Source: a virus (Duplodnaviria > Caudoviricetes). Taken from it: a stretch of DNA of 61,277 nucleotides. The DNA lies in the IMG/VR virus record IMGVR_UViG_3300027533_000023, positions 1 through 61,277 of that record; one strand, written 5' to 3'. Position 1 is the first letter of the stretch, and each line of letters starts with the position of its first letter. Below the pieces are notes generated by a model. It saw only the letters and a program-made list of their open reading frames with translations, did no database searches and was not told the origin of the DNA. This document shows positions 19,291-44,082 of the stretch, in pieces. The translations under genes were made by a program, and so were the position numbers.

Positions 19291-19331
19291 ATAACTTTTT
19301 TAATACTTAATTAAAATATTTATATTTAACC

Positions 19332-19423
19332 TGTTATTGGTTGATTTAAATTGCTGTTTTCTGTATTTTCTAGGTCTATTAAGGTTTAATGGGGAGCTGC
19401 TCAATAAAATGGGCAGCTTTTTT
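19332..19423 (+). ncRNA. Putative small RNA, array unit 1
   Basis: TATATTTA box at 19321-19328, U-rich body, terminator AGCTGCTCA-ATAAAA-TGGGCAGCT followed by a T-run. Confidence 0.5.
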
Positions 19424-19458
19424 ATTTTTTTATCTAATTTATTATATTAGCTTAGTAC

Positions 19459-19555
19459 TTCATAAATACTTTCTATTCTAGTTCTACCATCTCCGGTAGA
19501 CCGATCAAAACGATTCAAAACACAGTACCGAGCCCTATTTCTATAGGGCTTTTTT
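19459..19555 (+). ncRNA. Putative small RNA, array unit 2
   Basis: TATATTAGCTTAG box, TCTACC..GGTAGA hairpin, AAAACAC, terminator AGCCCTAT-TTCT-ATAGGGCT followed by a T-run. Confidence 0.55.
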
Positions 19556-19578
19556 ATTTTATTATACTAACTTAGTAC

Positions 19579-19647
19579 CAAGGGACTACTAATATGGTAG
19601 TTTTGCATTGAAGAAAACACGAGCCTCGTTTCCACGGGGCTTTTTTT
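19579..19647 (+). ncRNA. Putative small RNA, array unit 3
   Basis: TATACTAACTTAG box, ACTACT..GGTAGT hairpin, AAAACAC, terminator GCCTCGT-TTCC-ACGGGGC-T7. Confidence 0.55.
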
Positions 19648-19658
19648 AAATCCCCTTT

Positions 19659-34368: not shown

Positions 34369-34619
34369 GCTAATTCCATTAAAGGTTCTGGATACATTAA
34401 TGGTATCCCACCCACGTTAGGTATATCTGCCGGCATCTGCCTAGCCGCCTCTTCGATAATAGTTAACCACATCTGTCCACCTAAAATATCTTTTATTGCT
34501 AATCCGTAATTACGGGCAGCTTCAGTTAGTACATAGTATTCTAACTTGAACTTAGGTGTTAAACATGCTTTACAGCGGCTAGTATATTCATCTTGAATTT
34601 GTTCTATATTCAGGCTCAT
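34365..34619 (-). CDS. Hypothetical protein
   Basis: Coupled ORF. Confidence 0.55.
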   Translation of the reverse strand: MSLNIEQIQDEYTSRCKACLTPKFKLEYYVLTEAARNYGLAIKDILGGQMWLTIIEEAARQMPADIPNVGGIPLMYPEPLMELA

Positions 34620-34620
34620 A

Positions 34621-35271
34621 TTATGAAGGTTTTTTAGCTTTAAAACTTACGGCTACAAAGTTCGTTGTAGGTGCTGAAACACATTCTACCAGTACATCAC
34701 CAGTCTCTTTTTCAATTACTGGTCCACCTGCTCTTACTGCAGCTTGTATTTTTTTCTCCTGATCCTTAATCCTGTCTAATGTAGACTTAATGCTGTCGTT
34801 AAGAGCTTGCCAAGTCGGATCTTCAGCGTACATATACTTCTTACGGTAACCGGCAGTAATAGTAGCACCCATGATCTTCGCCCCTTCCTTCCCGTATTTA
34901 GCTACCTCATTTTCAACCATCAGTTTTACATTTGGGTCTTTAGCCGCCACAGTAAGAGCTTGCTCCAGTAGTTTCTTTTTAACCATAAATACTAACGGAT
35001 CTACTTCTCCGTTCATAATATTCGTGATCAGCCGTTGTGCCAGCTGGAAGGCGGTATTATCCACCAACTCCAGACTCTCCCCTCCGAGGTTCATAAGGGT
35101 TCCGGTTTCTTCCGGCTTAATCGTATTCAGGTCGATAACTGGGAGTAGATTAGATTTCTCAAAAGCCTCATACATTTCCTGCTGTTCTTCATTCATTTTT
35201 CGGATAGCAGCCTCATCTATCATAGGCTCCATCTGCCTCATTTCTTCAAAAATTTCTTTATTGCGTTTCAT
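34621..35271 (-). CDS. Hypothetical early protein
   Basis: 216 aa ORF in recombination region. Confidence 0.6.
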   Translation of the reverse strand: MKRNKEIFEEMRQMEPMIDEAAIRKMNEEQQEMYEAFEKSNLLPVIDLNTIKPEETGTLMNLGGESLELVDNTAFQLAQRLITNIMNGEVDPLVFMVKKKLLEQALTVAAKDPNVKLMVENEVAKYGKEGAKIMGATITAGYRKKYMYAEDPTWQALNDSIKSTLDRIKDQEKKIQAAVRAGGPVIEKETGDVLVECVSAPTTNFVAVSFKAKKPS

Positions 35272-35280
35272 AAAATATTT

Positions 35281-35520
35281 TTAATATATATACTGAAAAT
35301 ACTCACTTGCCTGTGAGGCTGTTATAGAAAATTTATACTTACCATTTTCAAAATCTTTATTTTGCTTATCAGTCATCCAGTCAAAATCCTTCCCATCAGC
35401 TCTACGGCTCATCGTTCTCTTTCTTTCACCATTTATAATATGCCAAACTGTATATCCATTACAATTAGATAAATCGTTAGCGTGAATCTCAATCTGTAAA
35501 TTTTTATTAGGATTAAACAT
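35281..35520 (-). CDS. Hypothetical protein
   Basis: First ORF after promoter motif, AAACCTTTTAT-ATG start context. Confidence 0.6.
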   Translation of the reverse strand: MFNPNKNLQIEIHANDLSNCNGYTVWHIINGERKRTMSRRADGKDFDWMTDKQNKDFENGKYKFSITASQASEYFQYIY

Positions 35521-35537
35521 ATAAAAGGTTTGAAATG

Positions 35538-35570
35538 CTAAGTTATACTAATTTTATATACTAACCTAAT
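35538..35570 (-). promoter_or_regulatory. Phage promoter ATTAGGTTAGTATA-N11-TAACTTAG
   Basis: Repeated motif with fixed spacing. Confidence 0.75.
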
Positions 35571-35600
35571 TTATTATAATCTTTTTTTAAAATAGTTTAG

Positions 35601-35633
35601 AAAAAACTGGCAACCTGTAGAAACAGTTACCAG
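35601..35633 (-). terminator. Intrinsic terminator with TTCT loop
   Basis: CTGGTAACTGT-TTCT-ACAGGTTGCCAG-T6. Confidence 0.8.
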
Positions 35634-35682
35634 ACCTTAAACCTTATCCTATGAAAGCTATCCTTTCGGAATTAGCTAGTTT

Positions 35683-35788
35683 AGCTGCTGCCGGGTGGAG
35701 GGAGTGCTTAAGCGCCCAAGGCATACTCTAACACCAGTCACCATTTGCCCGGTACTAACCCCCTTGGTGTCGACCACCCGCAGCAGCT
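35683..35788 (-). ncRNA. Putative structured RNA downstream of the SSB-like gene
   Basis: GC-rich island closed by AGCTGCTGCGGGTGG/CCACCCGGCAGCAGCT, with inner helices; strand not certain. Confidence 0.55.
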
Positions 35789-36417
35789 TAGAACGGCAGA
35801 TCATCAACAACTTCTGCGTCCGGTATATGTTCCTGAATATTAGTATTATTAGGTTCCATCATCTTCTGGTATTCTGGACTGCTCTTTATATCATTCTGGA
35901 TAAAATCAGGCAATCTATCAAACACCTGCTGGTTCCAGTTATCAAACTCTAACCTTAAGATTGGATTAATCTGCTTTGGTGCTTCATAACCTTTCATTAA
36001 GGTAGTGATACCAGCAATACGCTCATACATTTTACTTCCGTCTTTACTCGGCTTGTGGAGAATATTTAGCATACAAGGAACTCCAAGAAGATTTGTAATA
36101 TCGAAGTTTTTTGCTTCCTCTTCAGTAAAGGCTTTACCTCTCCAGCTCTCCAGGTCTTTCCTTAGGTTAGCTTTTTCATGGAGTGATAGCGTATAGGTTT
36201 TACTGATCACCATCGGTTCCTCTCCCCTTTCTTCTTTAAATACTCTTAGTTCTGTTGGTAGCTCCCAACCCAACCGTACCTTATACTGAAGTTTAGGCTC
36301 TCCCTTGTATTCCTCTTTAACAGTTCCGATTTCGATCATCTGGAAACATCGGGCTACATAATTCCCGGCAGGTATTAACTCGCGCGGGGTGCTGTTTGTC
36401 TTTGAAGTAATTGCCAT
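35788..36417 (-). CDS. Single-stranded DNA-binding protein-like
   Basis: IPAGNYVARC OB-like start; acidic DDLPF C-terminus. Confidence 0.7.
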   Translation of the reverse strand: MAITSKTNSTPRELIPAGNYVARCFQMIEIGTVKEEYKGEPKLQYKVRLGWELPTELRVFKEERGEEPMVISKTYTLSLHEKANLRKDLESWRGKAFTEEEAKNFDITNLLGVPCMLNILHKPSKDGSKMYERIAGITTLMKGYEAPKQINPILRLEFDNWNQQVFDRLPDFIQNDIKSSPEYQKMMEPNNTNIQEHIPDAEVVDDLPF

Positions 36418-36429
36418 TTTATTTAAAGT

Positions 36430-36708
36430 TTAATAGTGTATCTGTCGTCTGTATAGCTCCCGTTCCTGCTTAGCGATCACAGCACCCAGGCTGGCCACAT
36501 ACCTGTCGCCGAAGTAAGCATCACCAAATCTTTCTTCATATTCCTCAGCCAGTACTGCGTACTGGTAAAGCCTATCTACATCAGTAGTACTTTCGATCAG
36601 GCTGCGTAGCTGGTCGTATCTTCTTTGGGCATGTGTCTTGCTGGCTACTTTCTTCCACATATAGTGGTAGTAGATCCGTCTGTATAGATTAAGAGTAAAT
36701 GTTCTCAT
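36430..36708 (-). CDS. Hypothetical protein
   Basis: Operon position. Confidence 0.55.
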   Translation of the reverse strand: MRTFTLNLYRRIYYHYMWKKVASKTHAQRRYDQLRSLIESTTDVDRLYQYAVLAEEYEERFGDAYFGDRYVASLGAVIAKQERELYRRQIHY

Positions 36709-36824
36709 CTTTAGTCCAGTATTTAGGTATGTTTTTAATGCGGGTGCGAAAGATAATAGCGATAACGAGTACCGCTACTAATACAGCAGATCCAATAAAT
36801 AATTCTATCATAGGTTTATAGTTT

Positions 36825-44079: not shown

Positions 44080-44082
44080 AAT

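What the first reader, a model, noticed from the sequence alone, without database searches (positions are those of the whole stretch)
35601..35680. Fourth member of the TTCY-loop family: anti-start-codon segment before a terminator
Seen on -: a GAAA-tetraloop hairpin (AGCTAATTCC-GAAA-GGATAGCT), then TTCATAGGATAAGGTTTAAGG, then terminator CTGGTAACTGT-TTCT-ACAGGTTGCCAG-T6. The loop matches array units 2 and 3, and TAAGGTTTAA is shared with unit 1. The middle segment is the reverse complement of CCTTAAACCTTATCCTATGAA, which resembles this phage's start contexts (AAACCTTTTATATG; TTAAACCTTAATAAAATG). Inference: a 3'UTR-derived antisense RNA. Alternative: the + strand encodes a 26-aa peptide (35651-35731, MKAILSELASLAAAGWRECLSAQGIL) in a type I toxin-antitoxin-like sense/antisense pair.
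Basis: partly seen in the sequence, partly recalled or inferred. Interest (0 to 1): 0.7.

Follow-up and report, generated by a model that had tools for sequence, protein, structure and literature searches.

The report
Phage copy of FopS-like small RNA
The stretch is a phage-borne copy of a small regulatory RNA family found in many Bacteroidota bacteria and their phages, related to the FopS RNAs of gut Bacteroides that block translation by pairing with start codons; here neither its transcript nor its targets have been shown.

Summary
The sequence is as described. On the minus strand there is a GAAA hairpin (35656-35677), an unpaired 24-nt segment (35634-35657), and a terminator with a TTCT loop plus T6 (35601-35633).

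The middle segment is not a chance resemblance. Its core TAGGATAAGGTTTAA recurs exactly, in the same layout (unpaired 5' segment, then terminator), in dozens of viral contigs and in Bacteroidota chromosomes.

A covariance model built without this phage finds 35603-35657(-) at 48.3 bits (E 5e-13). It hits 15 of 151 sampled Bacteroidota genomes, with up to 11 copies each. In 151 genomes of a control phylum it gives only 3 weak partial hits.

The closest known family is FopS (Rfam RF04319). FopS RNAs use an unpaired 5' seed containing an anti-start codon to repress susC-like mRNAs. This copy scores 17 bits against a 56-bit threshold, so it is a divergent relative, not a member by Rfam's rule.

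The GAAA hairpin is missing in the closest relative. The phage's own start regions are not better targets than chance. The 26-aa peptide is not conserved.

No RNA data cover the site. An earlier follow-up on this same genome (array at 19300-19650) had already named FopS and GibS as closest known.

The parts
35634..35657 (-). Unpaired 5' seed CUUUCAUAGGAUAAGGUUUAAGGU. The core 15-mer TAGGATAAGGTTTAA lies at 35651-35637.
   Evidence: Unpaired in the folds. Identical in L032. The exact 15-mer recurs in family context in viral contigs and Bacteroidota genomes. It aligns to the 5' seed of the FopS consensus at 19 of 23 positions.
35651..35653 (-). CAU, the anti-start codon inside the seed. On the + strand it is the ATG of the 26-aa ORF.
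   Evidence: Read. The same CAU stands in the FopS consensus UUUUUCAU. FopS seeds pair next to start codons (PMC11697453 passages).
35607..35633 (-). Terminator hairpin: 11-nt and 12-nt arms with one bulged G, apex GU-UUCU-AC, loop at 35619-35622.
   Evidence: Two substitutions in L032 both keep pairing. Family-wide covariation of the stem.
35601..35606 (-). T6 tract of the intrinsic terminator.
35656..35677 (-). GAAA-tetraloop hairpin. It is present but is not part of the conserved unit.
   Evidence: Predicted. Its 5' arm and loop are absent from L032, which has an unrelated small hairpin at that place.
35683..35787 (-). GC-rich structured element between the stop codon and the RNA module. 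Context only; it is an insertion or deletion relative to L032.
   Evidence: Absent in L032. A contig of run X19 has a different left junction at 35781. No Rfam match.
35788..36417 (-). Upstream 209-aa gene (phrog_862). Its 3'UTR carries the module.
35538..35569 (-). Phage promoter motif TTAGGTTAGTATA (35569-35557) and -7 box TAACTTAG (35545-35538) for the next gene (ATG at 35520). This shows that the terminator ends one transcription unit.
   Evidence: 15 matches with up to 2 mismatches against 5.1 expected, reached by 0 of 100 shuffles.
19380..19426 (+). Array unit 1, a partial relative: the 3' half of the seed (UAAGGUUUAAUGG) plus a terminator.
   Evidence: R2 14.6 bits, E 0.013, model positions 12-55. 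R1 15.1 bits.
19524..19559 (+). Array unit 2 terminator with a UUCU apex. It matches only the terminator half of the model.
   Evidence: R1 16.7 bits. R2 14.6 bits, model positions 21-55.
19614..19647 (+). Array unit 3 terminator with a UUCC apex. Weak match to the terminator half only.
   Evidence: R1 10.5 bits, E 0.5. R2 9.8 bits, E 0.4.

Best explanation
Window 35601-35657 (minus strand) is a phage-borne member of a multicopy small-RNA family of Bacteroidota. The family layout is an unpaired, strongly conserved 5' seed (UUUCAUAGGAUAAGGUUUAA) followed directly by an intrinsic terminator, here with a GU-UUCU-AC apex.

Shown:
- family membership;
- conservation of the seed;
- covariation in the stem;
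- distribution of the family in phages and in Bacteroidota genomes.

Inferred by homology with FopS and GibS of Bacteroides thetaiotaomicron: the RNA is made as the 3' end of the upstream gene's transcript, possibly trimmed to about 57 nt. Its seed, including the anti-start codon CAU, pairs with translation initiation regions of host mRNAs, most likely those of secreted or outer-membrane proteins such as SusC-like transporters, and blocks their translation during infection.

Why a phage would do this is speculation. Possibilities are removal of a surface receptor or rewiring of nutrient uptake.
For: 1. Closest relative. L032 has a neighbouring protein 86% identical. It keeps the block from GCTTTCATAGG through the terminator, promoter and leader at 95.7% identity over 138 nt. 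The sequence upstream of the block and the gene downstream of it are replaced.

2. The 15-mer in phages. It is present in at least 118 viral stretches. Of 119 oriented matches, 24 are followed within 70 nt by a hairpin plus T-run. Model R2 finds 29 matches at E<=0.001 in the first 100 of those loci; 6 of these were training sequences and 2 are duplicates of training sequences.

3. The 15-mer in bacteria. Of 10 exact matches in 401 Bacteroidota genomes, 8 have the same context.

4. Leave-out test. Model R2, built without the window or L032, scores 35603-35657(-) at 48.3 bits, E 5.4e-13, over the full model.

5. Stem covariation. 82.8% of cells are paired against 63.0 +/- 2.9 in shuffles (0 of 500 reach it). 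Seven of 9 pairs change on both sides. Slid controls give 32-56%.

6. Distribution. R2 hits 15 of 151 Bacteroidota genomes, up to 11 matches per genome. In 151 genomes of the control phylum (that of the Sphingopyxis genome G407) it hits 3, all partial and at most 29 bits.

7. Link to FopS. RF04319 aligns to 35597-35656(-) with 19 of 23 seed positions identical (17.1 bits). Bacterial loci with the identical 15-mer score 35-36 bits over the whole FopS model.

8. FopS mechanism, from passages of PMC11697453: an unpaired 5' seed plus terminator, pairing at the start codon of susC mRNAs, and one member that is 3'UTR-derived.

9. Possible targets. In G069, which has 11 family copies, the best seed duplexes with 29 SusC-like start regions reach -21.1 kcal/mol, against -16.1 +/- 1.8 for shuffled seeds (0.5% reach it). 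The mean is -10.87 against -9.74 +/- 0.54 (2.5% reach it).
Against: - No transcript evidence. The two RNA runs that hold parts of this phage have contigs at 34600-34822 and 36599-36749 only.
- The raw count of exact 15-mers in 401 Bacteroidota genomes (10) is about the same as for the reversed control pattern (8). Only the contexts set the real matches apart.
- The Rfam FopS score is far below the gathering score: 17.1 against 56 bits.
- SusC start regions in G069 are not better targets overall than 68 other ORF starts in the same loci (Mann-Whitney p 0.37; at <=-14 kcal/mol, 4 of 29 against 9 of 68). Only the three strongest (<=-18) are all SusC, 3 of 29 against 0 of 68.
- G069 is not known to be this phage's host.
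- No excess pairing with the phage's own start regions.
- Relative G001 has the motif but not the AAACCTT leaders.
- The copy could be a passive capture that now serves only as a terminator.
Confidence: 0.6

Rival explanations
1. The copy is a captured host small-RNA gene, or a conserved recombination linker, that now serves only as the terminator of the upstream gene. The seed is carried along without a function of its own.
For: - It sits exactly where a terminator is needed, between a gene and the next promoter.
- The whole block of terminator, promoter and leader is shared with L032 while the flanking genes differ, as at a mosaic junction.
- There is no promoter of its own in the family register.
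- No RNA evidence.
Against: - The seed is letter-perfect over 21 nt in L032 and over 15 nt in G001, whose neighbouring protein is only 61% identical. In G001 the hairpin differs completely.
- The same seed is kept in many independent phage loci with unrelated stems.
Confidence: 0.2
2. The seed acts within the phage. It pairs with the AAACCTT-N4-6-ATG leaders of phage genes, or with the upstream mRNA itself, to time phage gene expression.
For: - AAACCTT is followed by ATG 11-13 nt later at 5 phage gene starts.
- The best predicted duplex is with the start region of ORF 20232: 12 contiguous pairs, -15.8 kcal/mol.
Against: - Shuffled seeds do as well: minimum -15.4 +/- 1.9, with 43% reaching the observed value. 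Internal gene windows do too (51%).
- G001 keeps the seed without such leaders or the phage promoter motif.
- Three of the five leaders are copies of one promoter-leader module.
- An earlier follow-up on the array reached the same negative result.
Confidence: 0.1
3. The RNA acts as a decoy. By copying a host family's seed it titrates the host's RNA-binding protein (an RbpB-like RRM protein), or competes with host family members, rather than repressing mRNAs itself.
For: - FopS RNAs bind RbpB through their 5' portion, and RbpB counteracts them (PMC11697453 passages).
- The phage seed is identical to that of chromosomal copies.
Against: Nothing here tests protein binding. The layout is the same as that of the acting host RNAs.
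Confidence: 0.07
4. The + strand encodes a 26-aa peptide (35651-35731) in a type I toxin-antitoxin-like sense/antisense pair.
For: The ORF exists and its ATG has an AAACCTT-N5 context like real starts.
Against: - In L032 the ORF from the same ATG is 52 aa and shares only MKAI.
- In other family loci the sequence upstream of the seed is a promoter, a tRNA or a terminator, so no ORF can be conserved.
- About one such ATG is expected by chance among the 16 AAACCTT sites that are not gene starts. This is my estimate, made from the counts.
Confidence: 0.02

Closest known systems
FopS, the family of paralogous sRNAs of Bacteroides thetaiotaomicron (Rfam RF04319; PMC11697453)
   Same: - An unpaired conserved 5' seed followed directly by a Rho-independent terminator; FopS RNAs are about 65-70 nt.
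- The seed begins UUUCAU, which holds an anti-start codon, and continues ..AU.AG.UUUAAGGU. Nineteen of 23 aligned positions are identical.
- Multicopy in genomes: 14 copies in B. thetaiotaomicron, and up to 11 model matches per genome here.
- One FopS member is 3'UTR-derived.
- The authors saw the sequence in one Caudovirales phage.
   Different: - It scores 17.1 bits against a gathering score of 56. Even chromosomal relatives with the identical 15-mer reach only 35-36 bits.
- Four seed positions differ.
- The spacer between seed and hairpin is about 10 nt shorter.
- The terminator apex is GU-UUCU-AC rather than the FopS loop.
- It is found in environmental Bacteroidota and phages from freshwater sediment and groundwater, not in Bacteroidaceae.
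- Targets and RbpB binding are untested.
GibS sRNA of Bacteroides thetaiotaomicron (PMC7366714)
   Same: It has a long unpaired conserved 5' seed that pairs across start codons of its targets (passages). FopS shares its R1 seed.
   Different: GibS is about 145 nt, has a second seed (R2) and a special promoter. No GibS match was listed by Rfam at E<=1 on six related bacterial loci.
The three-unit small-RNA array of this same phage (19300-19650; earlier finding e1-6240307)
   Same: The UUCY terminator apex (units 2 and 3) and UAAGGUUUAA just before the terminator (unit 1).
   Different: The units have their own promoter boxes and match only part of the model (9.8-16.7 bits). The element studied here is the only full-length family member in the window.

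Membership tests
FopS (Rfam RF04319) | Score at or above Rfam's gathering score (56 bits). | tested here: not met
   17.1 bits at 35597-35656(-), E 0.71 for an 81-nt search. 15.5 bits in a 451-nt search. Nothing at the gathering score in the whole window.
FopS (Rfam RF04319) | An unpaired 5' stretch followed directly by a Rho-independent terminator; a small RNA of about 65-70 nt. | tested here: met
   24 unpaired nt, a 27-nt hairpin and T6, 57 nt in all. The FopS description comes from PMC11697453 passages.
FopS (Rfam RF04319) | The conserved R1' seed sequence at the 5' end. | tested here: inconclusive
   Nineteen of 23 aligned positions equal the Rfam consensus. I could not see the paper's own alignment (a figure) or its supplements.
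FopS (Rfam RF04319) | The seed pairs with translation initiation regions of susC-like mRNAs and represses them. | tested here: inconclusive
   In G069 the best duplexes exceed shuffled seeds (0.5% of shuffles reach the minimum, 2.5% the mean). There is no overall difference from other ORF starts (p 0.37). The host is unknown and no experiment was done.
FopS (Rfam RF04319) | Bound by the RRM protein RbpB. | not testable with these tools
   Known from CLIP-seq and gel shifts in B. thetaiotaomicron.
FopS (Rfam RF04319) | An own canonical Bacteroides promoter, or derivation from a 3'UTR (9 intergenic, 4 antisense and 1 3'UTR-derived member). | tested here: inconclusive
   No TAnnTT[TA][GA] box 10-28 nt upstream of TAGG in the window or in L032; 10 of 41 family loci have a strict one. 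The 3'UTR type is inferred, not shown.
Short-type UUUCAUAGG small-RNA family defined here (models R1, R2) | A full-length match to a model built without the sequence under test. | tested here: met
   R2: 48.3 bits, E 5.4e-13, model positions 1-55.
Short-type UUUCAUAGG small-RNA family defined here (models R1, R2) | A hairpin kept through compensatory changes. | tested here: met
   The two window-to-L032 changes in the 5' arm (U>C, A>G) both keep pairing.
Intrinsic (Rho-independent) terminator | A GC-containing hairpin followed at once by a T tract, at the end of a transcription unit. | tested here: met
   The next promoter motif lies 32 nt downstream of the T tract.
Type I toxin-antitoxin pair | A conserved small, usually hydrophobic, peptide ORF opposite an antisense RNA. 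| tested here: not met
   The window ORF is 26 aa and the L032 ORF is 52 aa. Only the first four residues are shared.

The most novel reading that the evidence does not exclude
Phages of environmental Bacteroidota routinely carry seed-identical copies of their hosts' multicopy FopS-like small RNAs. The copies sit in 3'UTRs, in tRNA arrays or as small genes with their own promoter. The phages use them in infection to take over the host's post-transcriptional control of outer-membrane and secreted proteins, for example to shut off SusC-like transporters that may serve as receptors. That would make trans-acting small RNAs a common phage tool in a phylum that lacks Hfq and ProQ.
Probability: 0.35. 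Interest if true: 0.72.

Novelty: new variant of a known kind. Interest (0 to 1): 0.55.

Why it matters
In the passages I read, FopS and GibS are described only in Bacteroides and Bacteroidaceae, with a single remark that the sequence occurs in one phage.

The results here suggest three things:
- A divergent branch of the same kind of RNA is multicopy in other Bacteroidota.
- Many uncultured phages carry it with a letter-perfect seed.
- It is built into phage genomes in at least three ways: in a 3'UTR, next to tRNAs, or with its own promoter.

If the RNA is made and acts like FopS, phages of this phylum would be reprogramming translation of host envelope proteins with borrowed regulatory RNAs. 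The exact seed gives a direct handle for target prediction once a host is known.

Tried and rejected
- Known RNA families. Rfam at gathering scores found nothing in the whole window. It found only tRNAs in 11 related viral loci. ARAGORN found no tRNA in the window.
- Distant relatives of the neighbouring gene. Thirty viral loci at 57% protein identity or less have no homologous intergenic region. A profile search gave 80 viral and 31 genome loci at 61% or less. Apart from L032, only L089 (record G001) matched the seed segment; the other short hits fell on the promoter or leader.
- A 19-nt exact pattern found nothing in viral contigs. The 15-mer was needed.
- RNA evidence. Runs X23 and X24 gave one contig each, outside 35521-35800, so they say nothing about expression. 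DNA runs X19 and X20 gave fragmentary cover.
The intermediate relatives P0003-P0007, at 72-83% identity, could therefore not be fetched. They would have been the best test of seed conservation against drift.
- GenBank phages. Neither the element nor a long-type relative found a real match; all hits had E of 0.2 or more. The one intergenic hit I looked at, in Halocynthia phage JM-2012, has no terminator after it and lies opposite to its neighbouring genes. I rejected it as chance.
- Five bacterial genomes that hold relatives of the neighbouring gene lack the 15-mer at up to 1 mismatch.
- Pfam on five bacterial proteins whose start regions match the seed complement gave one sub-threshold TonB_C hit and nothing else.
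- A self-cleaving ribozyme or tRNA-like element upstream that could set the 5' end: no Rfam match at E up to 10.
- Earlier findings of this scan: no look-alike stretch in other genomes.
Supplementary Fig. 5a of PMC11697453, on the distribution of FopS homologues and the phage, may bear on the novelty claim.
- Literature. Searches 'FopS + Bacteroides + sRNA' (7 papers) and 'phage-encoded + small RNA + Bacteroidota' (4 unrelated papers) showed no report of this wider family. I did not search further.

Rows left out. Alignment A3 used 14 of about 23 short or short-like loci. I left out L248, L228, L315, L232, L249, L199, L289, L306 and L209 because of extra hairpins, long spacers or unclear terminators. 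I also left out the duplicates L283 and L296. All long-type loci were left out. L378 was left out of the SusC test because its match starts at model position 94.

Full report
WHAT IS THERE

The window is a whole virus record of 61,277 bases, estimated 98% complete. The finding lies on the minus strand in a 267-nt gap. The gap separates a 209-aa gene (35788..36417, phrog_862, no Pfam match) from a 79-aa gene whose ATG is at 35520.

Reading 5' to 3' on the minus strand:
- stop codon of the 209-aa gene;
- a GC-rich element of about 105 nt (35683-35787);
- the GAAA hairpin (35656-35677);
- an unpaired segment (35634-35657);
- a hairpin with a TTCT loop (35607-35633) followed by T6 (35601-35606);
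- 32 nt further on, the phage's repeated promoter motif TTAGGTTAGTATA (35569-35557);
- a -7 box, TAACTTAG (35545-35538).

The folds agree with the description.

IS IT MORE THAN CHANCE WITHIN THE WINDOW?

- My scan found 19 hairpin+T-run candidates. Five have 4-nt loops, and three of those five are TTCY: this one and array units 2 and 3.
- TAAGGTTTAA occurs exactly three times against 0.64 expected (2 of 100 shuffles reach three). There is no excess when one mismatch is allowed.

Taken alone, these are modest, post-hoc signals.

RELATED SEQUENCES

Relatives of the neighbouring gene at 61% protein identity or less mostly have unrelated intergenic regions.

One metagenome contig, L032 (86% identical protein), is informative:
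- It lacks the GC-rich element, and it lacks the 5' arm and loop of the GAAA hairpin.
- From GCTTTCATAGG through the terminator, the promoter and the leader to the next ATG it is 95.7% identical over 138 nt.
- The next gene is a different gene.
- The two differences in the 5' arm of the terminator (U>C and A>G) both keep pairing.

A second relative, the 60-kb record G001 (61% identical protein), carries the exact 15-mer TAGGATAAGGTTTAA. It stands in the sense orientation in an intergenic gap, directly before an unrelated terminator-like hairpin, about 270 nt upstream of G001's copy of the same gene.

Many matches are coincidences inside genes, often the same gene seen repeatedly. The family context shows up as follows:
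- 24 of 119 oriented matches are followed within 70 nt by a hairpin and T-run.
- 29 matches in the first 100 loci reach E<=0.001 with model R2. Six were training sequences and two are duplicates of training sequences.

Two layouts appear:
- Short type: seed, 1-8 nt, then a terminator whose apex is usually GU-UUCU-AC or a near variant.
- Long type: seed, then TGGTTAATGGTATTTGATTAGTGC, then a terminator with various loops.

Members differ in what lies upstream:
- Many have a Bacteroidota -7 box. Ten of 41 have a strict TAnnTT[TA][GA] box 10-28 nt upstream of TAGG, and others have near matches.
- Some follow a tRNA gene (L247, L289, L322).
- Some follow a terminator or a stop codon (L248, G001).

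In 401 sampled Bacteroidota genomes the exact 15-mer occurs 10 times. That is no more than the reversed control pattern, which occurs 8 times. Yet 8 of the 10 have the family context, seven of the long type and one of the short type.

A search for the seed's complement turned up a paralogue present in all five genomes searched. Its sequence is UUUCAUAGGGUACGGAUUAAAAAC followed by GGGCC.GGGU-UUCU-ACCC.GGCCC, with one copy showing a GUCU loop. It has a variant seed and a TTCT-type apex.

STRUCTURE AND MODELS

An alignment of 14 short-type sequences (A3) has an invariant seed. TTCY loops occur in 10 of the 14: TTCT 9, TTCC 1, GTCY 2, other 2.

The hairpin covaries:
- 82.8% of cells are paired, against 63.0 +/- 2.9 in shuffles (0 of 500 reach it).
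- Seven of 9 pairs change on both sides.
- Slid controls give 32-56% paired.

The rows I left out are listed under Tried and rejected. I chose sequences by the distance between seed and terminator, not by loop.

Model R2, built from 12 sequences without the window and L032, finds 35603-35657(-) at 48.3 bits, E 5.4e-13, over the full model. The next hits in the window are:
- an ordinary terminator at 44080 (15.0 bits; one search shows no seed there);
- unit 1 (14.6 bits, model positions 12-55);
- unit 2 (14.6 bits, positions 21-55);
- unit 3 (9.8 bits).

So 'fourth member of the family' is right in a limited sense. The units share the terminator apex, or the 3' half of the seed. This element is the only full-length member in the window.

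R2 hits 15 of 151 sampled Bacteroidota genomes, with up to 11 matches in one genome. It hits 3 of 151 genomes of the phylum of a Sphingopyxis genome, all partial and at most 29 bits.

COMPARISON WITH KNOWN FAMILIES

The only Rfam family that aligns sensibly is FopS (RF04319).
- In the window it scores 17.1 bits, E 0.71, against a gathering score of 56. Nineteen of 23 seed positions are identical: UUUCAUAGGAUAAGGUUUAAGGU against UUUCAUgGUAUUAGAUUUAAGGU.
- In bacterial long-type loci that carry the identical 15-mer it scores 35-36 bits over the full model.

From passages of PMC11697453:
- FopS is a family of 14 paralogous RNAs of about 65-70 nt in B. thetaiotaomicron.
- Each has an unpaired 5' seed (R1') and a Rho-independent terminator.
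- The seed pairs next to the start codon of susC-like mRNAs and blocks translation.
- The RRM protein RbpB counteracts this.
- One member is 3'UTR-derived.
- The family is 'highly conserved within Bacteroidaceae', and the sequence was seen in one Caudovirales phage.

GibS has a related seed.

By Rfam's criterion the element is not a FopS member. By layout and seed similarity it is a divergent relative.

MECHANISM

Shown: membership in a conserved, structured, multicopy RNA family.

Inferred: that the RNA is transcribed as the 3' end of the upstream gene's mRNA, and that it acts in trans.

The seed's complement reads UUAAACCUUAUCCU-AUG-AAA, which looks like a start region with Lys codons.

- Against this phage's own 96 start regions the seed does no better than shuffled seeds. 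The minimum is -15.8 against -15.4 +/- 1.9, and 43% of shuffles reach it. It does no better than against internal gene windows either. This agrees with the earlier follow-up's remark on the array.
- In G069, a Bacteroidota genome with 11 family matches and at least 42 SusC-like genes over the family cut-off, I tested 29 SusC start regions. Three form strong duplexes (-21.1, -19.6 and -18.4 kcal/mol). Two of them (L377, L373) have a two-block pattern, UUAAACC..AUGAAA. The minimum and the mean exceed shuffled seeds; 0.5% and 2.5% of shuffles reach them.
- SusC starts are not better overall than 68 other ORF starts from the same loci (p 0.37). Only the extreme tail differs, 3 of 29 against 0 of 68.
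- Among 10 near-matches to the seed complement in five other genomes, five place their ATG at the start of an ORF of 150 aa or more, and several of those begin like signal peptides. Pfam adds nothing to this.

I rate this as suggestive only. The phage's host is unknown.

REJECTED PARTS

- The GAAA hairpin is not conserved.
- The 26-aa ORF is not conserved: it shares only MKAI with a 52-aa ORF in L032.

VERDICT

The element is a 3'UTR-embedded, phage-borne member of a FopS-like small-RNA family that is widespread in Bacteroidota and their phages. It is a new variant of a known kind, of moderate interest, with expression and targets still to be shown.

Noticed in passing
window 35683-35787 (-): The GC-rich structured element just upstream is an insertion or deletion. 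It is absent from L032. A contig of DNA run X19 joins it to the upstream gene through a different sequence of about 15 nt at 35781. No Rfam match and no blastn match in 194 loci.
   Followed up: partly
window 35531, 37743 (-), 57175 (+); also 20219 (+), 34632 (-): A leader motif AAACCTT lies 11-13 nt before the ATG of five genes. Three of them are the identical AAACCTTTTATATG just downstream of the repeated phage promoter. Several more distant relatives (L138, L141 and others) have TCAAACCTTT upstream of the homologous gene. What it does is unknown.
   Followed up: partly
window 35521-35657 compared with L032:747-883: The block of terminator, promoter and leader is 95.7% identical to L032. The neighbouring protein is 86% identical, and the downstream gene is replaced outright. 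It looks like a mosaic junction at a conserved regulatory block.
   Followed up: no
L334, L335, L338, L348, L349 (five bacterial genomes): A paralogous small-RNA-like locus is present in all 5 genomes searched. It has a variant seed (UUUCAUAGGGUACGGAUUAAAAAC) and a GGGU-UUCU-ACCC terminator apex, with one GUCU variant.
   Followed up: partly
L247:526-595, L289:5212-5276, L322:1495-1545: Family members lie directly after, or between, tRNA genes in two viral contigs and one bacterial genome. tRNA processing could therefore set their 5' ends. Only the L322 tRNA was confirmed by Rfam; the others I read from the sequence.
   Followed up: no
window 35614-35623 compared with 35648-35656 (-): The terminator apex and 3' arm (UUUCUACAG) resemble the start of the seed (UUUCAUAGG). 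The apex GU-UUCU-AC is kept across unrelated stems. I have no explanation for a conserved loop in a terminator; a protein contact is one guess.
   Followed up: no
L017, L022, L028 (downstream of the homologous gene): Three distant relatives also have GC-rich (51-53% GC) intergenic stretches of 124-220 nt right after the homologous gene, unrelated in sequence to the window's element.
   Followed up: no
P0064 (homologue of the 209-aa protein): One homologue of the upstream protein is named 'sRNA-binding carbon storage regulator CsrA' by JGI. This is probably a mis-annotation; I did not check it.
   Followed up: no
L196:8017-8180 (G001): In G001 the family copy is followed, about 60 nt later, by a second terminator-like hairpin and then by a 36-codon ORF before the homologous gene. 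R2 gives a second, weaker hit in G001 at L198:14390-14445(-), 19.7 bits.
   Followed up: no
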